64,000 nucleotides of DNA. Origin: a virus. Lineage: Duplodnaviria > Caudoviricetes. A program made the translations under genes and the position numbers. Location of the stretch: IMG/VR virus record IMGVR_UViG_3300031134_000001, positions 128,001 to 192,000 of that record, one strand, 5' to 3'. The notes under the pieces were generated by a model. The model worked only from the letters and a program-made list of their open reading frames with translations, was not told where the DNA came from and did not search any database. Shown here piece after piece: positions 3,966-64,000 of the stretch (its first letter is position 1; each line of letters begins with the position of its first letter).

Positions 3966-5327
3966 ATGGATATTGAAAAAAGTTCGCTCTGGCGTGAAGT
4001 ACAAGGCGTCTTAAGTGGTGGTAGTAAACCCGTACACCAGACATGGAGTGTGCGGATCTTTGCTGGTGGCGATACGATCATCCCGTTTAAGATCGTGTCG
4101 GTCGATATTGACCGCGATTACTTGAACAACTACACCGACTTCATTTTGGTAGACGTGCGGGTGCCTCTAGGCACTTACGCGAAACGGTTGTATCCACATC
4201 TGGCCAACGTAGAGATCGAGTTAAAGCGGGTCAACATTGGCGAGACCAGTGACGCAGCGCAGTTAAACGATGCTGTGGAAGTCGAGCGCTATACGGCCAT
4301 CATGATCGACACGGGTAATCCGATCATCGAAAACGGTGTGGGTAACACCACCTCTGAAGAAGACTTAAACCGCATCGAGATTTTAACGGTGAAGTTCCAA
4401 CTCTTGAATAAAGTGTTGGAGCAAATCCGCGTCATCCCCGTCGGCGGTATCCGCCGCAACATGACGGGTGAAGATGTGGTCAAGTCTGTCTTGACGCAAG
4501 CTTCGCAACTGGCAGACGTTGATACCAGTCGCAAGATCAAAGGCGTGCGGATGGTGCCTGCCTCGAACCAGCAAAAGCGTAGTGCGGTGATTCTGCCGCA
4601 CAACCTGGAGATGGTGAATGTGCCGCACCACGTGCACTACCACTGTGGCGGTTTGTACAACTCGGGGTTGGGTTACTATCTGCAAGACGATTACTGGCAT
4701 GTGTTCCCAGCGTTTGACAATACCCGGTTCAATGAAGGTGGCACAACCTTAACCATCATTAACCTGCCTCCACGTCGCTTGCCGGGTGTTGAGCGTACCT
4801 ACCGTAAGGATGGTGACAACTTGGTGGTGTTGGCTACTGGCGACTCGAACTTCCGAGATGTGAGTAACACCATGCAGCTCAATGCCGGTAACGGTGTGCG
4901 CTTTGCTGACGCGACATCCTTGCTCGATAGTTTCGCTACGGTGGCTAACAACAAAGCCCAAGCAGCGCGGGGCCGTAGCAATACCGAGATCATCACGGAC
5001 AAACGCCCGAATGGCATTAACTACACACCGACGGCTGCGCGCAGCATCAATGCCAATCCCTACGTGGAGTATTCGGCGCTGGCAGCGCGTCAAGGTAGCG
5101 GTATTAATCTGGTGTGGGAAAATGCCGACCACACGCTCTTGTATCCTGGGATGCCTGTGCGGGTGATGTATCTGGACGGGGCGGAGATCAAAGAGTTGTA
5201 CGGCGTGCTGTTAGGCGCGCATCTGTACGCGAGTCTGCGTGATGTTGGCGTGACGTCTGAACGGTTCGTGAACAACTTAACGTTAAGCGTGTTCGTCAAA
5301 CCAATGAGCAAAATGGCAGCAACCTAG
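3966..5327 (+). CDS. putative baseplate hub-like virion protein (453 aa)
   Basis: SD gaggacgt. Motifs GxYxxGLGYY and LYPGMPVRV are characteristic of phiKZ-like hub proteins (recalled). Confidence 0.6.
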   Translation: MDIEKSSLWREVQGVLSGGSKPVHQTWSVRIFAGGDTIIPFKIVSVDIDRDYLNNYTDFILVDVRVPLGTYAKRLYPHLANVEIELKRVNIGETSDAAQLNDAVEVERYTAIMIDTGNPIIENGVGNTTSEEDLNRIEILTVKFQLLNKVLEQIRVIPVGGIRRNMTGEDVVKSVLTQASQLADVDTSRKIKGVRMVPASNQQKRSAVILPHNLEMVNVPHHVHYHCGGLYNSGLGYYLQDDYWHVFPAFDNTRFNEGGTTLTIINLPPRRLPGVERTYRKDGDNLVVLATGDSNFRDVSNTMQLNAGNGVRFADATSLLDSFATVANNKAQAARGRSNTEIITDKRPNGINYTPTAARSINANPYVEYSALAARQGSGINLVWENADHTLLYPGMPVRVMYLDGAEIKELYGVLLGAHLYASLRDVGVTSERFVNNLTLSVFVKPMSKMAAT

Positions 5328-54602: not shown

Positions 54603-56288
54603 ATGTTTAACCAACGTTTCGGCTTTACCCGTCCAGGCACCCAGAACATCGCAACTACCTGGGTCAGATCTTTCAACAGTCTCATCGCAGGTCACTCAGA
54701 CCTGCCGGATGTGTTGGTGTTCGCCCACGACCACAACACTAAACCGGATGGCTCGCCGTTGACGTCGAACCCAACCGCACGACCTTTCATTCAAACCGTG
54801 GGTGTGGCTGTTGGCGCCAACGGCGAGTGGGGTTTGGCGATCTTTGCACCACACGGCATGCTGGAATCCGCGCCGCAGAGCGAACGCGTTGACTACATGA
54901 ACAGCAGCCCGTCAGTGATGTCAGCCATTTACAAGCTGGCGGCCGAACGTAATGTCGAAGCGACAGCGATCCACTTTAACAGTGTGCTTGTCGACACGGT
55001 CGGTCTCGATCCAAACGACCCTGAGGTAGTGCGTCGGCTGCTGTCGGCGCTGCTCAACCGCGCAGAGAGCAGTCTGGGTCGTGTTCTGGCTGAACGGGAA
55101 AAGGAAGCATTGCCAGGCATGATCGACTTCAATGAAGCTCGTGGTCGCGTTGTGCTCGAACAGAACGTAAGTTACGAAAATCCAGTGCTGCGTGATCTCC
55201 TCGGCAAGATCGTCCGTAACGACTACGTCTTTACCTTGACTGTCAAAGAACCACCACGCCGTGACAGCGTGGTCGAGCCGGTGATAACGACGTTACTCAA
55301 GGTCAGCGGCTACGTTGACTTTAAGCGTGCGCCAACCGAATCGAATCCAGGCCAGCCATGGAACATCCAACCTCTGCGCTACTTGCCAGAATTCATCATT
55401 ACCGATATCGACAACGGGAGCGGTGAAATGACGGCGATGCATGAACAGCAAGCCACCATGTTCGCTATTGCCATGGTGGCGCAATACATGCGTGCGGGTC
55501 GGTGGACGGAGCGCCACATGGCGCACCTGAAAACCCACAACGAGAAAGACTTGACGTTGTTGTTCGATACTCAGCAGCGCGAAGTATTCATCCGTGAAAA
55601 ACACCAGAACGGTTACGCCGCCATGGCAGACCTGGCCAGCAAAATCCTGTCTCCTGGCTTCCTGCTGTCGATTGATATCCCGCAAAATCCAACCGGCAAC
55701 ATGGAACTCAGGACACTTTTCGAAGTTGTGGTGCGCCACTCGACGTCGATCGTATCGATGTTCAATGATGTCGCAGCTAGCCTGGGTCGGGACGACTACT
55801 ACGGTCGTTATGCTAATCCTAACGACCTTGGTAACGCCTACTTGCCCTCGGTGATGGTGCCGATGGGTTCCATGGTTGTTGTCGAGAAAGCTGGTAAGTT
55901 CGAGTGTGATGTTCGTCAGATGGACACGCTGCGCGCTTTGCATGTTTGCGAAGAAGCAGTTAGTGCGGGCAGTAACCGCGTGAACATCCAGAAGATGGCA
56001 TCGAATTATCTGGACCTGTTCTATCTGCAACATACGTCCAACGCTCATCGTGGTCAGTCTGGTCCATCGACGTTCGGTCGCGGCGGCCACATGGCTTACG
56101 AGCACGCAGCCTTTCTGAAGCATGTGAGCATGACGCCGGAATACTACAATGTGGCGCATCGCACAACGTTCAATGGCCAGTTTGTCAACCTCGTGGTGAA
56201 CTTGTTGGGTTCCAGCGGTTTGGACATCCGAACAGACGACCAGACGAAGGCTTTGCTGACGGCTGACCATCAGGCGATCGTGCTGTAA
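54603..56288 (+). CDS. chimallin (ChmA, nuclear shell protein)-like protein, truncated at the C-terminus
   Basis: Ordered motifs match remembered ChmA: RLL..LLN, D..G..VR.D, V.G.VD..R.P, IITD, F.I, RW, SID, MG, D.R..D.L.AL, A.R.TFN..F, GL.I..D. Confidence 0.7.
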   Translation: MFNQRFGFTRPGTQNIATTWVRSFNSLIAGHSDLPDVLVFAHDHNTKPDGSPLTSNPTARPFIQTVGVAVGANGEWGLAIFAPHGMLESAPQSERVDYMNSSPSVMSAIYKLAAERNVEATAIHFNSVLVDTVGLDPNDPEVVRRLLSALLNRAESSLGRVLAEREKEALPGMIDFNEARGRVVLEQNVSYENPVLRDLLGKIVRNDYVFTLTVKEPPRRDSVVEPVITTLLKVSGYVDFKRAPTESNPGQPWNIQPLRYLPEFIITDIDNGSGEMTAMHEQQATMFAIAMVAQYMRAGRWTERHMAHLKTHNEKDLTLLFDTQQREVFIREKHQNGYAAMADLASKILSPGFLLSIDIPQNPTGNMELRTLFEVVVRHSTSIVSMFNDVAASLGRDDYYGRYANPNDLGNAYLPSVMVPMGSMVVVEKAGKFECDVRQMDTLRALHVCEEAVSAGSNRVNIQKMASNYLDLFYLQHTSNAHRGQSGPSTFGRGGHMAYEHAAFLKHVSMTPEYYNVAHRTTFNGQFVNLVVNLLGSSGLDIRTDDQTKALLTADHQAIVL

Positions 56289-60044: not shown

Positions 60045-62042
60045 ATGAGCCACAATGTTACAAGAAACGCCCTGGGTAACGTAACGAGTATTCTTGGCCC
60101 CGACGGTAAACTGTTACGGTTTGCCAACAGTACGCCCACCGACCAAGTGATGGCTGACCAAGCCGTCAAAGACACTGGCGGCTTTCCGCTGTTTGACATC
60201 GGCGAGACACTGAGCTACAAGGGACTCTTCCCGCTGCGCAAGGTCGATAACGGCGCGTCGTCGCGGTATGTGTTGGGCGCAGCCACAATTCCAGCTGTTC
60301 CCAACTCACCGAACATGACCAACCCAGAAAGCTACGGTTGGCAGACGCTGGGTAAGCTCACCATTCCTGGTGGCGCCCTGGTCGGTAAAGGGACGGCAGT
60401 GTGTAGCTTCATTCTGGAATGCTTAGCGCAGTTCGGCACCAACGCTCACTACATCTTTGCGGATATCGAAGTGGCGGGTGACGGCGCGGTGGGTAACTTC
60501 TTTACCCGTCCAGTTGCTAGTGCAACGCGCCTCGATACGTCGTTCACGTTAACCGGCAAAGATTCTTCGACTCTTACCCTGTCAGGCGGCGGCTGGTACT
60601 CCTACACCGGCGGCTTCTCGAAGCGTTGCAACCTGATGAAAGACATCACGATCGTCTTCAAGTTCGCAGCAGCGAGCAACATGGGTCGCGCAGTGTCGTT
60701 TGTCTCAGGTAAGGGCGACCTTAAAGACACAGTCGCTTCGCCACAAGCAGGCGTTGCTTACCGTGATCCAATCCAACAGCCGTTTAAAGCCAGCGCGTTC
60801 TGGAACGTTCCGCTGGGTGATGGCGCGATCTTCCAACAAGCGACCGATCCAGAAACCGCATGTATTCTGACAGGTAACCCAGGCGGTGTGGCCAACGGCG
60901 CGTTTGCCTGGATCAGCGGTAAAGATGGCGGCGGTAATAACTTCATCCAGCTCAAGTCGGATGACCCCATCAGTAACTTCGCTTACGGTTCGCGCGCTTA
61001 CGGTGGTCCATGGCCATTTGCGCACACGGACACAGGCGGCGCCTCCGGTACGTTCCGTATGCGGGCGCCAGCGCAGGAATTCATCACAGCGCAGTCCAGT
61101 GACCGGGTCATCACCCTCATCACGCCAGACAAGCGCTACATGCTGGAATCGGGCGAGTACAGCTACAACGCCACCACCAACACGCACCGGCTCGGTTACT
61201 GCACGATCTGGGATTTGTACGGCACGGGTCTGTCGAACAACATCACCACCAACCAACCACTCATGAGTGAAGGTTACCGCGCCAGTGGTCACCCGCTGTG
61301 TGGCGGTATTATCCGTGTCTCGGACATGGAAAAGGGCAGCATCGATCACGTGATTGCCATGCAGCTCTCCCAGTGGCAACAACGCGCTGGTGTGTTCTCG
61401 GTGGTAAGTGCTGTCGTGGGTGGTACGGCTGTTTCTGTCAAACCACTGGACGCGCAGCAAAAGACCCAGAGCTACGCTTCGCTGCTCAAGGCCGGTAAAG
61501 TGATCGGTTACGCTGGTGCTAACTATACGCTGGCTACTGATGCCACGTACGATGCAACCAACAACACCACCAACTTCACCGTCACCACAGCAATTACCGG
61601 CAGTTCGGGAACGCTGTACTTGGGTGGTGCTAACAAGAACAACCAGCAAGCCAATCAGTTAGTCTGGCCTGCCACGTACGTCGACAACTATAGCCTGGAC
61701 CATGGCCAGTGGGGTTGCTATCGTGGTCTGGTGCCATTAGGCGCGATGTTTGGCATTCCACCTAACGTGGACGTCACGACGCTGGGCTTGACGCCTGAAG
61801 GCTTGATGTTGGCCCGTGCTTTCCAAAAGTACGGCGGTGTGAATAACGACACCACCAACAACACGTTCTCGATCTGCTTCCTGGAAACAGGCATGAGCGC
61901 TACCCAGAAAGACAATCTGAACAAGGACCGTATCTTACTGCGTAACCAACTGCGCATGATCACGAACATCAGTGCAGCCAATCCGGGCGGGCCAGGTAAT
62001 CGCCTGATCACACCGCCGCAAGATCTGTACCCGTTCTATTGA
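60045..62042 (+). CDS. tailspike/fibre-like protein with a bacterial secreted-type C-terminal domain (665 aa)
   Basis: PF..SAFWN.PL, RASG.PL.GG.IR..D...G.I.H, P.G....IPP..D...LGLT..G...ARA.QKYG. Confidence 0.6.
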   Translation: MSHNVTRNALGNVTSILGPDGKLLRFANSTPTDQVMADQAVKDTGGFPLFDIGETLSYKGLFPLRKVDNGASSRYVLGAATIPAVPNSPNMTNPESYGWQTLGKLTIPGGALVGKGTAVCSFILECLAQFGTNAHYIFADIEVAGDGAVGNFFTRPVASATRLDTSFTLTGKDSSTLTLSGGGWYSYTGGFSKRCNLMKDITIVFKFAAASNMGRAVSFVSGKGDLKDTVASPQAGVAYRDPIQQPFKASAFWNVPLGDGAIFQQATDPETACILTGNPGGVANGAFAWISGKDGGGNNFIQLKSDDPISNFAYGSRAYGGPWPFAHTDTGGASGTFRMRAPAQEFITAQSSDRVITLITPDKRYMLESGEYSYNATTNTHRLGYCTIWDLYGTGLSNNITTNQPLMSEGYRASGHPLCGGIIRVSDMEKGSIDHVIAMQLSQWQQRAGVFSVVSAVVGGTAVSVKPLDAQQKTQSYASLLKAGKVIGYAGANYTLATDATYDATNNTTNFTVTTAITGSSGTLYLGGANKNNQQANQLVWPATYVDNYSLDHGQWGCYRGLVPLGAMFGIPPNVDVTTLGLTPEGLMLARAFQKYGGVNNDTTNNTFSICFLETGMSATQKDNLNKDRILLRNQLRMITNISAANPGGPGNRLITPPQDLYPFY

Positions 62043-62099
62043 TTACAAAAAGCTAATGTTGATCTCCAGTAATAATTTACAGGGGATTAGGATAGTGTG

Positions 62100-62720
62100 C
62101 GAGAAAAGATGTTTTTCGGCGATAAGCCATGGTTAGATCCTTCGATGGATCGCACTGGACTAATGAAAGCGCTTTGAAAACTGTCTGCTCTGGGAGATCT
62201 TTGATAATTTAGATAAATCTGTTGGTAGGTGTGATAGAACCACACGAGACAACCAACTAGGAGGAGCAGTAACCTTCTGAAAAACCTTCAATGGTTAGTC
62301 GGCCTGCACTTAGCGACGATCGCTATTTGCCTGCATAGGTCGGTTAACAAGTTGTGCTCTTTACATCGGACGTATGGGCCGATGAAGATGGGTTAGTAGG
62401 CTCGCCTGCACTTCGGTGTGGCCGCCCAACGCCCTAGAGCACCGATATTCGTGATGCGTCCCTCAGGGCAGGTGTTATACTCCGGCCACCGACGCGTATT
62501 GGTACCTTTGAATAGCAATGTGCAACAGCCGAATCGGAACGTTTGCATGTTGCCCAGGTCCCACGAATGCTCGTGCACAGCCGGAAGGTGATTGGGTTGA
62601 TCTTCCCCCAGCCCAGTCATGCTTTTGGATGTGTACCGCCAATTCACATCAAATCGATCAAGTGTTGTGTTATGTATCCTGGAGTATTCAGTCAAACGTT
62701 GCTCCAGGCATGCATGTAGT
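62100..62720 (+). ncRNA. putative structured non-coding region
   Basis: No credible + strand ORF. Multiple stems, e.g. 62294-305/62337-348, 62221-226/62252-257 and 62678-684/62702-708. Confidence 0.4.
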
Positions 62721-62729
62721 ACAAGTTTC

Positions 62730-62815
62730 GGGCGGATAGGCAAGCGGTCAAAGCCAGCTGACTGTAAATCAGCCCCCTCTGTGGTTCGTAGGTTCAAATC
62801 CTTCTCCGCCCACCA
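62730..62815 (+). tRNA. tRNA-Tyr (GUA)
   Basis: GGGCGGA/TCCGCCC acceptor, anticodon GTA at 62764-66, long variable arm, encoded CCA. Confidence 0.95.
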
Positions 62816-62820
62816 AGTTA

Positions 62821-62934
62821 GGAAACGCATGAGCGACCTCTAGAAGGGGCGCAGTGAATCAAACCCTGAGAAGGGTAGCCGAGCGGAAAGTAACATCTAG
62901 GCGATGGTAAGGTGAAATCTGCTCATGTGTTTCC
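62821..62934 (+). ncRNA. 114-nt multi-hairpin RNA closed by a 14-bp stem
   Basis: ggaaacgcatgagc/gctcatgtgtttcc; internal accct-gaga-agggt GNRA hairpin. Confidence 0.55.
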
Positions 62935-62953
62935 CTCTGTTTCAAGTTTCACC

Positions 62954-63083
62954 GGGTATGTAGCTCAGTTGGTAGAGCAAGGCTCTTCGTGGGAATGCGC
63001 ACCCCCACACCGGCTTAATAGCCGGCGCCGAAAGGCAGCGACCAAAGCCTAGGTCCTGGGTTCGAGTCCCGGCATATCCACCA
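62954..63083 (+). ncRNA. tRNA-like RNA with Ala identity and a 61-nt structured anticodon loop
   Basis: Canonical acceptor, D and T arms and CCA; G3.U70 and A73; stem AGGCT/AGCCT encloses three hairpins. Confidence 0.8.
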
Positions 63084-63265
63084 AACACAGTAGTAAGAAA
63101 GAGCACAAACCCAACTTACGGCTTCACCACATTCGATGTGGATCTCTCGTAACATCCTCCCGTGCCGAGTCGGCTCTTGAAGTCGGCGGGATATGAGGTG
63201 CCCGACGCGTTCGGAGTGTTGGAACTCCCCTTGCCTGAAAAGGCGTTTAGTAGCAAAGTTTCAAT

Positions 63266-63414
63266 GGCTAAGATGGTGAAGTGGAAGACACAGCTATTCA
63301 CTCCTAGGTTCAGTGAGTAGTATTTGAAAGACAACTCTGTGCGATTTAGGGGAAACCTTATTGGTCAAACTGCTTGTCTAGTAGAACGGGGGTTCGATTC
63401 CTCCTCTTCAGCCT
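63266..63414 (+). ncRNA. degenerate tRNA-like RNA with large internal insert
   Basis: GGCTAAGA/TCTT(C)AGCC, D-like GGTGAAGTGGAAGACAC, T arm GGGGG-TTCGATT-CCTCC; no CCA. Confidence 0.45.
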
Positions 63415-63435
63415 ACTGTTTCAATGTAGTTAGCA

Positions 63436-63556
63436 GGGCATGTAGCTCAGTGGTAGAGCACCGTCTAGTGTGGTTCAACTCCACACCGTTCCACACCTGG
63501 GGCGGCACTGGTTAAATTGACGGAGGTCTTGGGTTCAATTCCTGACATGTCCACCA
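63436..63556 (+). ncRNA. tRNA-like RNA with Ala identity and a 53-nt structured anticodon loop
   Basis: GGGCATG/CATGTCC (G3.U70), A73, CCA; stem CCGTC/GACGG encloses two hairpins. Confidence 0.8.
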
Positions 63557-63590
63557 GAATTCATCGTAGTACAAACAACAGGAGAAGATC

Positions 63591-63746
63591 ATGAAACGCA
63601 TGAGTAAGCCATACCCAGAATCGTCGACCCGTCAAGCTGAACGCGGCCTGCGTCAAGGTCTGCACAGCATCCAAGTCCCGGTCGCTGGCAAGCACAACAC
63701 GATCCTCCAGACCAAACCATCGAGCGCACGCGTCTCGATGAACTAA
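63591..63746 (+). CDS. small basic protein (51 aa) inside the tRNA cluster
   Basis: SD aggag with AAC leader. MKRMSKPYPESSTRQAERGLRQG... Confidence 0.55.
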   Translation: MKRMSKPYPESSTRQAERGLRQGLHSIQVPVAGKHNTILQTKPSSARVSMN

Positions 63747-63751
63747 ACGCG

Positions 63752-63844
63752 GGAAGCGTGGCCGAGCCGGTTTAAGGCACTGGTTTGCTAAACCAGCGTA
63801 GGGAGCAATCCCTACCGTGAGTTCGAATCTCACCGCTTCCGCCA
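63752..63844 (+). tRNA. tRNA-Ser (GCU)
   Basis: GGAAGCG/CGCTTCC, anticodon GCT at 63787-89, long variable arm, G73, CCA. Confidence 0.95.
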
Positions 63845-63866
63845 ATTCACATTTTCAAAGGTTGTC

Positions 63867-64000
63867 ATGTTCACTTTCCTCTATTGGCTCTGCGTCATGG
63901 TTGTGGTTGCCTACTTCGTCATCCAATGGCCGAAGTCGGTGAACAAGATCAAATGCATCGCTGGTTTCATCGCAGCGTTCCTGCCGCTCGTGAACTTCGT
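63867..64000 (+). CDS. membrane protein, truncated by the window edge
   Basis: SD aaagg. MFTFLYWLCVMVVVAYFVIQW... Confidence 0.5.
   Translation, partial: MFTFLYWLCVMVVVAYFVIQWPKSVNKIKCIAGFIAAFLPLVNF

What the first reader, a model, noticed from the sequence alone, without database searches (positions are those of the whole stretch)
63436..63556. Anticodon-less, alanine-identity tRNA-like RNA with a different insert (copy 2)
Seen: GGGCATG/CATGTCC (again G3.U70), A73-CCA and near-identical D and variable loops to copy 1, but with compensated stems (CCGTC/GACGG). The 53-nt loop is unrelated in sequence: gtgtgg-TTCAACT-ccacac (a T-loop-like hairpin) plus ccgttcca/tggggcgg. Two copies keeping pairing and Ala identity while the inserts diverge argues for selection on a chargeable scaffold with variable payload (inference).
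Basis: partly seen in the sequence, partly recalled or inferred. Interest (0 to 1): 0.82.

Follow-up and report, generated by a model that had tools for sequence, protein, structure and literature searches.

The report
Two tRNA shapes joined tail-to-tail
A giant phage carries an alanine-type tRNA gene whose anticodon loop is replaced by a second, loop-closed tRNA-like top half, giving a tail-to-tail double tRNA mimic that cannot read codons; a cultured Burkholderia phage has the same design and the function is unknown.

Summary
Window 63436-63556 is a canonical tRNA body with G3.U70, A73 and an encoded CCA. Its 5-bp anticodon stem closes a 53-nt insert instead of a 7-nt loop (Rfam tRNA 49.5 bits).

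The insert is itself tRNA-like:
- It has a true T arm, followed directly by a 7-8 bp acceptor-like helix closed by a short loop, then a GG-containing D-loop analogue.
- The inner helix has its own G3.U70 and A73.
- This is a circularly permuted tRNA/tmRNA top half with the topology of YrlA. It shares the anticodon stem with the outer tRNA.

The cultured Burkholderia jumbo phage FLC9 has the same nested fold with many compensatory changes. It lacks G3.U70 and mostly lacks CCA, so alanine identity is not conserved across the family.

In a close relative (L162) the sister gene, copy 1, keeps its scaffold but carries a different insert, a permuted tRNA-Leu-like. Another relative lacks copy 2.

No excision of the insert gives a sensible anticodon, and the phage shows no RtcB or Rnl2-type ligase (the Rnl1 search had no working control), so an intron is unlikely.

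Best reading: a processed, non-decoding double tRNA mimic, possibly alanylated, with an unknown partner.

This scan noted related nested or tRNA-shaped inserts on other DNA before (e1-2989576 and the CPR cases).

The parts
63436..63442 (+). outer acceptor 5' strand GGGCAUG (G3 at 63438)
   Evidence: Pairs 7/7 with 63546-63552, with G3.U70. Rfam tRNA alignment and RNAfold.
63445..63459 (+). outer D arm GCUC-AGUGGUA-GAGC (G18 G19 present)
   Evidence: Differs from copy 1 by one base.
63461..63465 (+). shared anticodon-type stem, 5' strand CCGUC
   Evidence: Pairs with 63519-63523. In FLC9 the equivalent stem is CCCGU/ACGGG.
63468..63486 (+). inner T arm GUGUGG-UUCAACU-CCACAC
   Evidence: Matches the strict T-arm motif: 10 occurrences in the genome against 0.55 expected. 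Three pairs are changed on both sides relative to FLC9.
63486..63493 (+). inner acceptor 3' strand CCGUUCC followed by A (the position-73 equivalent, 63493)
   Evidence: Follows the T stem with no spacer, as in tRNA. Pairs with 63499-63505, including a G.U at the 3:70 position.
63494..63498 (+). closing loop CACC(U) of the inner acceptor
   Evidence: RNAfold. The equivalent loop is 13 nt in FLC9.
63499..63505 (+). inner acceptor 5' strand GGGGCGG
63506..63518 (+). single-stranded D-loop analogue CACUGGUUAAAUU, with a GG that could dock on the inner T loop
   Evidence: Aligns to the 5' region of Rfam's permuted tmRNA consensus (20.2 bits, E 0.11). FLC9 has GUAACUGGUAAACAA at this place. A relative in run X9 has lost one U here.
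63519..63523 (+). shared anticodon-type stem, 3' strand GACGG
63524..63545 (+). outer variable loop AGGUC and outer T arm UUGGG-UUCAAUU-CCUGA
63546..63556 (+). outer acceptor 3' strand CAUGUCC (U70 at 63548), A73, CCA
   Evidence: The same 3' end is typical of phage tRNA-Ala and phage tmRNA genes.
62954..63083 (+). copy 1: paralogous Ala-type scaffold with a different insert of about 60 nt (three hairpins)
   Evidence: Rfam tRNA 55.1 bits. The insert together with its anticodon stem is replaced in L162 by a permuted tRNA-Leu-like.
63266..63414 (+). third tRNA-like gene of the cluster: 8-bp acceptor with a bulge, class-II type D arm, long stem, large variable domain, no CCA
   Evidence: Its variable domain (63325-63382) is replaced in relatives.

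Best explanation
The locus encodes a non-decoding double tRNA mimic.

The outer part is a complete tRNA of alanine type. It should fold as an L and be cut out of the tRNA-array transcript by the usual tRNA-end enzymes. With G3.U70, A73 and CCA it is a plausible substrate for alanyl-tRNA synthetase, which does not read the anticodon.

In place of the anticodon loop, the 5-bp stem carries a second tRNA-like top half in circularly permuted order: T arm, then an acceptor helix closed by a loop, then a D-loop analogue. This gives two L-shaped heads joined tail-to-tail through one shared stem.

The inner head has the topology of YrlA and of the tRNA-like domain of tmRNA. With a 7-bp acceptor stacked on a 5-bp T stem, it could be opened by RNase P and given a CCA, as happens to M. 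smegmatis YrlA.

Most likely role: it binds or titrates proteins that recognise tRNA shape, rather than taking part in decoding.

Shown: the sequence, the fold, its conservation in FLC9, and the modular swapping of inserts.
Inferred: processing, charging, and the binding partner.
For: - Canonical outer tRNA core with a 53-nt insertion.
- The inner T arm is far above chance: 10 motif hits against 0.55 expected, 9 of them in the tRNA cluster.
- The inner acceptor helix follows the T stem with no spacer and carries G.U at 3:70 plus A73.
- RNAfold gives the same nested fold independently for this RNA and for FLC9 L151:4443-4578.
- A covariance model of the inner module plus the shared stem finds FLC9 as its only other full-length hit in about 1 Mb of phage tRNA-rich DNA (26.5 bits, E about 1e-4). 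On that alignment 97% of cells pair and 6 pairs are changed on both sides, against 30-51% paired when the partners are slid.
- In L162 the copy 1 scaffold carries another permuted tRNA-like insert: T arm, closed acceptor, Leu-type D arm, anticodon arm.
- No choice of excision points gives an alanine anticodon. ARAGORN's best guesses are Phe(AAA) here and Gly(UCC) for copy 1, and the L162 allele gives a meaningless call (a 'stop' anticodon).
- The genome has no ordinary tRNA-Ala.
- The phage encodes a CCA-adding enzyme with an HD domain.
Against: - There is no expression or processing data. All runs that hold the sequence are DNA.
- Only two independent sequences of this exact design are known (the G000/L162 sequence and FLC9), so the covariation statistics are thin.
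- FLC9 lacks G3.U70 and mostly lacks CCA, so charging cannot be the conserved function.
- The element is dispensable in the L157 lineage.
- The identity of copy 2 between G000 and L162 is uninformative, because the whole 600-nt neighbourhood differs by only 1%.
- No partner protein (Ro/TROVE, SmpB) is encoded by the phage.
Confidence: 0.5

Rival explanations
1. It is an interrupted tRNA gene. The 53-nt insert is an intron, like the 'enigmatic introns' of Lak phage tRNAs, and is removed to give a working tRNA.
For: - Introns in phage tRNA anticodon loops have been reported, one of them said to look like a tRNA itself (PMC6784885).
- Many IMG/VR tRNA genes carry 40-60-nt inserts. For some of them, removing the insert restores a perfect tRNA-Asn or tRNA-Thr.
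- ARAGORN in intron mode calls this locus.
Against: - Any excision that keeps U33 gives anticodon AAA with U37 on an alanine-identity acceptor, which would be a missense tRNA.
- The copy 1 alleles in G000 and L162 would yield different anticodons, or none.
- The tRNA-like module is permuted, so RNase P and 3' trimming would cut inside the insert rather than at its borders.
- The insert is far too short for a group I intron and no bulge-helix-bulge motif is seen by eye. The only ribozyme-class hit in a permissive Rfam search is a weak permuted-tmRNA match.
- The phage has no RtcB and no Rnl2-type ligase. The Rnl1 search was uninformative.
- No insert-free allele was found in relatives.
Confidence: 0.12
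2. It is a tRNA-Ala gene inactivated by a selfish or recombinational insertion of tRNA-derived sequence, and is neutral or of no use to the phage.
For: - Inserts are swapped between close relatives, and copy 2 is absent from the L157 lineage.
- Exchange at the universally conserved D-arm and T-arm sequences is easy.
- Earlier notes of this scan describe nested tRNA genes as mobile cassettes in other genomes.
Against: - Both scaffolds keep every invariant tRNA position and fully paired stems, with compensatory differences between copies 1 and 2.
- The same nested architecture is kept, with changes on both sides of many pairs, in FLC9. FLC9's virion protein is only 40.6% identical to that of G000.
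- Decay would not preserve five helices in both phages.
Confidence: 0.18
3. It is a miniature tmRNA-like RNA. Either it is alanine-charged and acts with host SmpB on stalled ribosomes, or its inner tRNA-like domain acts as a decoy for SmpB.
For: - The acceptor GGGCAUG...CAUGUCC-ACCA is the one used by phage tmRNAs and phage tRNA-Ala genes.
- The inner module gives a weak match to Rfam's permuted tmRNA at the T arm / acceptor / 5' GGGG..CUGGUU junction (20.2 bits, E 0.11).
- L126 has a comparable double tRNA-like domain directly after a full-length tmRNA.
Against: - The score is far below the gathering score of 47.
- ARAGORN finds no tmRNA in the genome.
- There is no pseudoknot, and no tag reading frame with a typical ending.
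- The outer part has a full D stem, which tmRNAs lack.
- The phage has no SmpB.
- The FLC9 homologue lacks alanine identity.
Confidence: 0.1
4. It serves mainly as a processing signal (tRNA punctuation). Cleavage at its ends defines the 5' end of the mRNA for the 51-aa ORF that starts 34 nt downstream.
For: - In L157, copy 1 sits in front of the same ORF with the same 34-nt leader, so either tRNA-like gene can occupy that place.
- No sigma-70-type promoter or intrinsic terminator is found in 62000-64000, which fits one long transcript that must be cut.
Against: - An ordinary tRNA would do this job.
- This does not explain the elaborate and conserved inner module, or why the decoding loop is lost.
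Confidence: 0.1

Closest known systems
YrlA, the bacterial and phage Y RNA-like tRNA mimic (Rfam RF02553; Chen et al. 2014, PMC4201824)
   Same: - The module order is the same: T arm, then an acceptor-like stem closed by a loop, then the D element, attached to the rest of the RNA where the anticodon stem would be.
- M. smegmatis YrlA, which has a 7-bp acceptor, is cut by RNase P and receives CCA.
   Different: - Here the module is attached to a complete second tRNA, not to a Ro-binding stem.
- There is no GNCGAA motif and no Rfam YrlA hit even at E<=5.
- The phage has no Ro/TROVE gene.
- The D element is a loop without a stem.
tRNA-like domain of tmRNA, especially two-piece (permuted) tmRNA genes (Rfam RF04321)
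   Same: - Alanine identity (G3.U70, A73).
- A D-loop analogue without a stem (..CUGGUU..GAC).
- The gene order T arm, acceptor 3' strand, short linker, acceptor 5' strand.
- Processing at the linker is known for permuted tmRNA.
   Different: - No mRNA-like reading frame and no pseudoknots.
- 20.2 bits against a gathering score of 47.
- The 'P2' helix is only 5 bp and leads into another tRNA.
'Enigmatic introns' of Lak megaphage tRNAs (Devoto et al. 2019, PMC6784885)
   Same: - A phage tRNA gene interrupted in the anticodon region by a conserved insert.
- One Lak insert was said to look like a tRNA.
   Different: - In Lak phages, alleles with and without the insert exist and a normal anticodon is recovered.
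- Here no anticodon is recoverable and the inner module is permuted and loop-closed.
tRNA scaffold used in the laboratory to express recombinant RNAs (an insert replaces the anticodon loop; from my own knowledge)
   Same: - The payload is placed on the anticodon stem of an otherwise intact tRNA.
- The tRNA gives correct end processing and stability.
   Different: - This one is natural.
- The payload is itself tRNA-like.
Permuted tRNA genes of the red alga Cyanidioschyzon merolae (from my own knowledge)
   Same: The 3' half precedes the 5' half, and the acceptor is closed by a linker that must be opened by the tRNA-end enzymes.
   Different: - The algal genes are stand-alone and mature through a circular intermediate made by the splicing endonuclease and ligase.
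- Neither enzyme is evident in this phage.

Membership tests
tRNA (Rfam RF00005) | Cloverleaf that scores above the gathering threshold | tested here: met
   49.5 bits against a threshold of 29, covering model positions 1-71.
tRNA (decoding) | 7-nt anticodon loop with U33 and an anticodon that matches the acceptor identity | tested here: not met
   The loop is 53 nt. The only excisions that keep U33 give AAA with U37, which is not an alanine anticodon.
Alanine-accepting RNAs (AlaRS substrates) | G3.U70 in the acceptor, A73, and a free CCA end | tested here: met
   The outer helix has G63438.U63548, A63553 and CCA. The inner helix also has G.U at 3:70 and A73, but it is closed by a loop.
Alanine-accepting RNAs (AlaRS substrates) | Actual aminoacylation with alanine | not testable with these tools
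   This needs in vitro charging or acid-gel analysis.
Alanine-accepting RNAs (AlaRS substrates) | G3.U70 conserved in homologues | tested here: not met
   The FLC9 homologue has C3-G70 and ends in ACA. G3.U70 does recur in unrelated insert-bearing tRNA-likes: L152, L135 and L013.
tmRNA (RF00023) and permuted tmRNA (RF04321) | Score above gathering, a tag reading frame, and pseudoknots | tested here: not met
   Best match is 20.2 bits against a gathering score of 47. ARAGORN finds no tmRNA.
YrlA (RF02553) | Module order T arm, closed acceptor-like stem, D element | tested here: met
   Read from the sequence and from folding. The order is as described in PMC4201824.
YrlA (RF02553) | Ro-binding stem with the GNCGAA motif, a Ro/TROVE gene nearby, and a match to the Rfam model | tested here: not met
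   No YrlA hit at E<=5. No GNCGAA in 63436-63556. No TROVE gene in the genome.
Self-splicing or enzyme-spliced tRNA introns (group I; bulge-helix-bulge) | A ribozyme core, or two 3-nt bulges around a 4-bp helix at the exon borders; a ligase available | tested here: not met
   - 53 nt is far too short for a group I intron.
- The permissive Rfam search gives only a weak permuted-tmRNA match inside the insert.
- No bulge-helix-bulge motif is seen by eye.
- No RtcB or Rnl2 in the genome.
Nested double tRNA-like RNA of FLC9-type jumbo phages (defined here) | An outer tRNA body whose anticodon stem carries T arm, closed acceptor and D analogue | tested here: met
   The R2 model hits FLC9 L151:4470-4542 at 26.5 bits. 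The predicted folds are the same and 6 pairs are changed on both sides.

The most novel reading that the evidence does not exclude
RNase P opens the inner acceptor loop and the phage CCA-adding enzyme completes the new 3' end. The mature product is then a two-chain particle of two pieces of about 58 nt, held together by swapped acceptor strands and the shared stem. It has two tRNA heads and two alanine-accepting CCA ends. Such a double-headed aminoacyl-RNA has no described counterpart. It could engage a dimeric partner such as AlaRS, or deliver or sequester two alanyl ends at once.
Probability: 0.12. Interest if true: 0.9.

Novelty: new variant of a known kind. Interest (0 to 1): 0.72.

Why it matters
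Phage tRNA genes are usually read as codon-usage helpers or as spare parts against tRNA-cleaving defences. This locus shows a nucleus-forming jumbo phage keeping tRNA-shaped RNAs that cannot decode.

- They are built modularly on a tRNA-Ala scaffold, and the payload is itself a loop-closed tRNA top half.
- If the RNA is expressed, it would be a natural tRNA-scaffolded RNA, and a second kind of tRNA mimic beside YrlA and tmRNA.
- It may show how phages interfere with, or borrow, enzymes that recognise tRNA shape.
- The same design occurs in the cultured phage FLC9, so it can be tested at the bench.
- It also warns annotators: ARAGORN's default mode misses these genes, and its intron mode misnames them as Phe(AAA) or Gly(UCC).

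Tried and rejected
- **Close relatives through IMG/VR.** Searches with the neighbouring 665-aa protein and with a virion protein found nothing. An exact 34-mer of the insert was absent from viral contigs and metagenome contigs. A degenerate pattern for the inner module returned only chance matches or tandem tRNAs.
- **Full-length covariance model R1.** It scores every ordinary tRNA as high as the FLC9 homologue, so it is useless as a detector. The inner-module model R2 was used instead.
- **Other cultured jumbo phages.** R2 found nothing real in FLC1-1B, RP12, Xoo-sp14, RSF1 or XacN1. Its one weak hit lies in coding sequence.
- **Whole records of L157, L160 and L163.** These could not be searched because they are not held. 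Contigs of the more distant protein homologues carry no tRNA cluster next to the gene.
- **Conservation of copy 2 among near relatives.** It looked striking, but the surrounding 600 nt differ by only 1%, so it says nothing about selection.
- **T arm plus 'closed acceptor' in other phage loci.** A scan gave 38 cases, but about 20 are expected by chance and several are simply tandem tRNAs with like acceptors. I do not count them as family members.
- **tmRNA-like tag frame.** In copy 2 the frame that ends at UAA reads ..WGGTG*, which is unlike a tag. Copy 1 has AUG CGC ACC CCC ACA CCG GCU UAA UAG, which I regard as coincidence.
- **Thermodynamic stability.** The whole RNA is not exceptional against shuffles (z = -1.43). 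The case rests on motifs and comparison, not on energy.
- **Pfam on the putative chimallin.** No hit in this Pfam copy. The assignment rests on 89% identity to a protein recorded with PF25677.

Full report
**Context**

The window is bases 128001-192000 of a complete 271,026-bp virus record with direct terminal repeats.
- A virion protein is 40.6% identical to one of Burkholderia phage FLC9, and 32-34% identical to those of Ralstonia, Xanthomonas and Erwinia jumbo phages.
- Window 54603-56288 is 89% identical to a protein of relative L157 that is recorded as chimallin, PF25677. L157 also has a PhiKZ-type capsid gene nearby.
- The genome is therefore a phiKZ-like, presumably nucleus-forming, jumbo phage. 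It was assembled from a phyllosphere metagenome, and relatives occur in straw and other metagenomes.
- The finding lies in a one-strand tRNA array: Tyr, copy 1, a third tRNA-like gene, copy 2, a 51-aa ORF, Ser, then Gln, Asn, His, Thr and Leu.
- No sigma-70-type promoter or intrinsic terminator is seen in 62000-64000.

**Observation**

- Rfam's tRNA model aligns 63436-63553 end to end at 49.5 bits (gathering score 29), with 53 nt inserted where the 7-nt anticodon loop should be. Copy 1 (62954-63080) scores 55.1 bits with a 58-nt insertion.
- The outer body has the invariant tRNA positions: U8, A14, G18 G19, G15 with C48, G53-C61 and U54 U55 C56 A58. It has G3.U70, A73 and an encoded CCA, as do most other tRNAs of the array.
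- Copies 1 and 2 differ by compensated changes: pair 4:69 is U-A in copy 1 and C-G in copy 2, the anticodon stems are entirely different but both paired, and the T stems differ.
- ARAGORN's default mode misses both genes. In intron mode it names them Gly(UCC) and Phe(AAA), which is arbitrary.

**What the insert is**

Read 5' to 3', the 53 nt consist of:
- UA;
- a hairpin GUGUGG-UUCAACU-CCACAC, whose loop fits the T-loop consensus;
- directly after it, CCGUUCC-A;
- a short loop CACC(U);
- GGGGCGG, which pairs with CCGUUCC;
- a single-stranded CACUGGUUAAAUU.

This is a tRNA top half in circularly permuted order: T arm, acceptor 3' strand, discriminator, closing loop, acceptor 5' strand, D-loop analogue with GG.

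The inner acceptor reads G1-C72, G2-C71, G3.U70, G4.U69, C5-G68, G6-C67, G7-C66, A73. It therefore repeats the alanine signature.

The stem CCGUC/GACGG serves as the anticodon stem of the outer tRNA and, from its other end, as the equivalent stem of the inner module. The predicted object is two L-shaped heads joined tail-to-tail.

RNAfold finds the two inner hairpins and the shared stem without any constraint.

**Is it more than chance?**
- A strict T-arm motif (five pairs, G-C closing pair, loop TTCRANY) occurs ten times on the + strand of the genome and never on the - strand. Eight of the ten belong to tRNA or tRNA-like genes of the cluster, one is this inner arm, and one lies elsewhere. Shuffled genomes give 0.55.
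- A fully paired 7-nt helix directly after a T stem, with a loop of 3-15 nt, is expected in about 1% of T arms. This estimate comes from the pairing odds I used to judge.
- Overall folding energy is not exceptional (z = -1.43).
- Rfam's permuted-tmRNA model aligns 63469-63513 weakly (20.2 bits, E 0.11 in a 1.4-kb search). I treat this only as a pointer to the topology.

**Relatives**

Near relatives were reached through the neighbouring 665-aa protein.
- L162 (65% identity in that protein) has copy 2 unchanged. The whole stretch 63383-64000 differs by only 1%, so this identity says nothing about constraint.
- L162's copy 1 is informative. The acceptor, D arm, variable loop and T arm are kept. 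The anticodon stem is different (UGAUC/GAUCA), and the insert is an unrelated 112 nt: T arm GGGGG-UUCGAGU-CCCCC, acceptor 3' strand UAUCCGC, A, a 10-nt loop, acceptor 5' strand GCGGGUA, a Leu-type D arm GGCGGAAUUGGUAGACGC, and an anticodon-type arm CCGGC-CUAGAGA-GCCGG. This is a complete, permuted tRNA-Leu-like with a closed acceptor.
- Contigs from two runs of different studies show the same replacement, and also a replacement of the variable domain of the third tRNA-like gene.
- L157, L158 and L159 (88% identity) have copy 1 as in G000. They lack the third gene and copy 2, and copy 1's CCA is joined to the sequence that follows copy 2 in G000.
- The unit of exchange is therefore the anticodon stem plus its payload, between the universally conserved D-arm and T-arm sequences. 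The genes are accessory.

**A distant homologue**

The tRNA array of FLC9 (L151) contains three odd tRNA-likes.
- One of them, L151:4443-4578, has the same parts in the same order as copy 2: outer acceptor, D arm, stem CCCGU/ACGGG, inner T arm CCCGG-UUCAAAU-CCGGG, inner acceptor UCUGCCC/GGGCAGG closed by 13 nt, D analogue GUAACUGGUAAACAA, and outer T arm.
- RNAfold predicts that fold on its own.
- Covariance model R2 was built from G000 alone and covers only the inner module plus the shared stem. It finds this FLC9 site as its only other full-length hit in about 1 Mb of phage tRNA-rich loci (26.5 bits, rough E between 6e-5 and 8e-4).
- On the model-guided alignment, 97% of cells pair and 6 pairs are changed on both sides. 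With the partners slid by 1-3 columns, 30-51% pair. By eye, the outer acceptor, shared stem and outer T stem add at least six more double changes.
- With two sequences this is suggestive, not statistical proof.
- Another FLC9 element (4119-4275) resembles L162's copy 1. It has the same Leu-type D arm inside an outer tRNA, although its acceptor strands allow alternative pairings.
- FLC9's outer acceptors have C3-G70, an odd 2-nt bulge, and in two of three cases end in ACA rather than CCA. Alanine identity and an encoded CCA are therefore not family-wide.

**Wider survey**
- Ala-type acceptors of this sequence (..CAURUCC-ACCA) in IMG/VR belong mostly to phage tmRNAs and tRNA-Ala genes. Several belong to short anticodon-less tRNA-likes.
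- One of these, L126, is a 110-nt nested double tRNA-like domain with G3.U70 in both helices, directly after a full tmRNA.
- Requiring this D arm, a long insert and an Ala-type CCA end gave only one further locus, L152.
- R2 found nothing in five other cultured jumbo phages.
- The exact design is therefore rare, while the broader theme of phage tRNA genes with inserts or without anticodon arms is common.

**Mechanism**

An intron reading is unlikely for these reasons:
- No excision restores an alanine anticodon.
- Keeping U33 gives AAA with U37 on an alanine acceptor, which would mistranslate.
- The two alleles of copy 1 would give different anticodons, or none.
- The tRNA-like module is permuted, so RNase P and 3' trimming would nick the insert in its middle instead of releasing it.
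- The phage has no RtcB and no Rnl2-type ligase, and the Rnl1 search was uninformative.

A tmRNA reading fails on score, on the lack of a tag frame and pseudoknots, and on the presence of a D stem. The phage also lacks SmpB.

YrlA has the same module order. M. smegmatis YrlA is cleaved by RNase P in its closed 7-bp acceptor and receives CCA (PMC4201824). But the Ro-binding stem, its motif, an Rfam match and a Ro gene are all missing here.

What remains is a non-decoding tRNA mimic built on a tRNA scaffold.
- The outer half should be excised and stabilised like any tRNA of the array.
- In G000 the outer half is a plausible AlaRS substrate. That G3.U70 with A73 suffices and that the anticodon is not read is established knowledge.
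- The genome has no normal tRNA-Ala. It does encode a CCA-adding enzyme with an HD domain.
- The inner half offers a second tRNA elbow and an acceptor helix, either closed or opened by RNase P.

I take the most likely role to be binding or titrating proteins that recognise tRNA shape. The partner is not identified.

**Novelty and verdict**

The elements are individually known: tRNA mimics, permuted tRNA-like domains, and inserts in phage tRNAs (PMC6784885). I found no description of a tail-to-tail fusion of a complete tRNA with a permuted, loop-closed tRNA top half, or of its modular exchange.

Earlier unverified notes of this scan describe related things on other DNA: tRNA-top-half-shaped inserts in a gut phage, and nested tRNA genes in CPR bacteria. 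I rate this a new variant of a known kind. It is real and interesting, and its function is open.

Noticed in passing
window 62954-63083; L162:8779-8949: Copy 1 keeps its Ala-type scaffold in relative L162. Its anticodon stem and insert are replaced there by a complete, circularly permuted tRNA-Leu-like with a closed acceptor and an anticodon-type loop CUAGAGA. G000's own insert keeps only the CCGGC/GCCGG arm of it.
   Followed up: partly
window 63266-63414 (variable part 63325-63382): The third tRNA-like gene has an 8-bp acceptor with a bulged C, a class-II type D arm, a 9-bp stem with a 9-nt loop CCUAGGUUC, and no CCA. Its internal domain of about 58 nt is swapped for an unrelated 67 nt in L162 and in straw-metagenome contigs.
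   Followed up: partly
L157:7971-9240 (also L158, L159): In the relatives with 88% identity in the neighbouring protein, the third tRNA-like gene and copy 2 are absent. Copy 1's CCA is joined directly to the 34-nt leader of the 51-aa ORF, as if the two paralogous 3' ends had recombined.
   Followed up: yes
L151:4119-4275 and L151:4295-4407 (Burkholderia phage FLC9): Two further odd tRNA-likes lie in the FLC9 array. One has an inner T arm, a closed acceptor and a Leu-type D arm. The other has a 46-nt insert that ends in GCCACCA just before the stem. All three FLC9 outer acceptors have an extra CC between the T stem and the acceptor. None of them is annotated in the GenBank record.
   Followed up: partly
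window 63084-63110, 63240-63262, 63415-63435, 63557-63580; L151 spacers: The spacers between tRNA-like genes share a GTAGTA motif, often preceded by GAATTC, in both G000 and FLC9. This could be a phage promoter or a processing signal.
   Followed up: no
L126:5374-5483 (- strand): A 110-nt nested double tRNA-like domain lies 5 nt after a full-length phage tmRNA. Both its outer and inner acceptors have G3.U70 and A73, and it has no D stems.
   Followed up: partly
IMG/VR loci L002, L010, L017, L025, L099 and many others: A large class of phage tRNA-shaped genes has inserts of 40-60 nt that contain a covarying hairpin followed by a conserved ACAGCAA. In some of them the anticodon stem-loop seems restorable; in others it does not.
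   Followed up: no
IMG/VR loci L003, L109, L074, L094, L102: In a second class, an insert of about 50 nt ending in AGTTACTT sits in the 5' strand of the anticodon stem, around positions 28/29. Removing it restores a perfect tRNA-Asn(GTT) or tRNA-Thr(TGT).
   Followed up: no
IMG/VR loci L185, L189, L190, L206, L218, L243 and others: Many viral contigs carry tRNA-likes of about 58 nt with an acceptor, D arm and T arm but no anticodon arm. They often lie just upstream of an ORF.
   Followed up: no
L125:5979-6053, L146, L150: A 75-nt tRNA-like with the same acceptor as copy 1 (GGGTATG/CATATCC-ACCA) has an unpaired anticodon arm. ARAGORN calls it a tRNA with a four-base anticodon.
   Followed up: no
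G000 212622-213857 (outside the window; L153:1276-2511): The phage encodes a CCA-adding enzyme with PolyA_pol head, RNA-binding and HD domains.
   Followed up: yes
window 54603-56288: A 561-aa protein is 89% identical to a relative's protein recorded as chimallin (PF25677). This Pfam copy gave no direct hit.
   Followed up: partly
window 62821-62934 and 62061-62720: The 114-nt structured element after tRNA-Tyr, and the ORF-free stretch of about 660 nt in front of the array, are conserved in L157. In L162 the 114-nt element is missing and the upstream stretch has an internal replacement.
   Followed up: no
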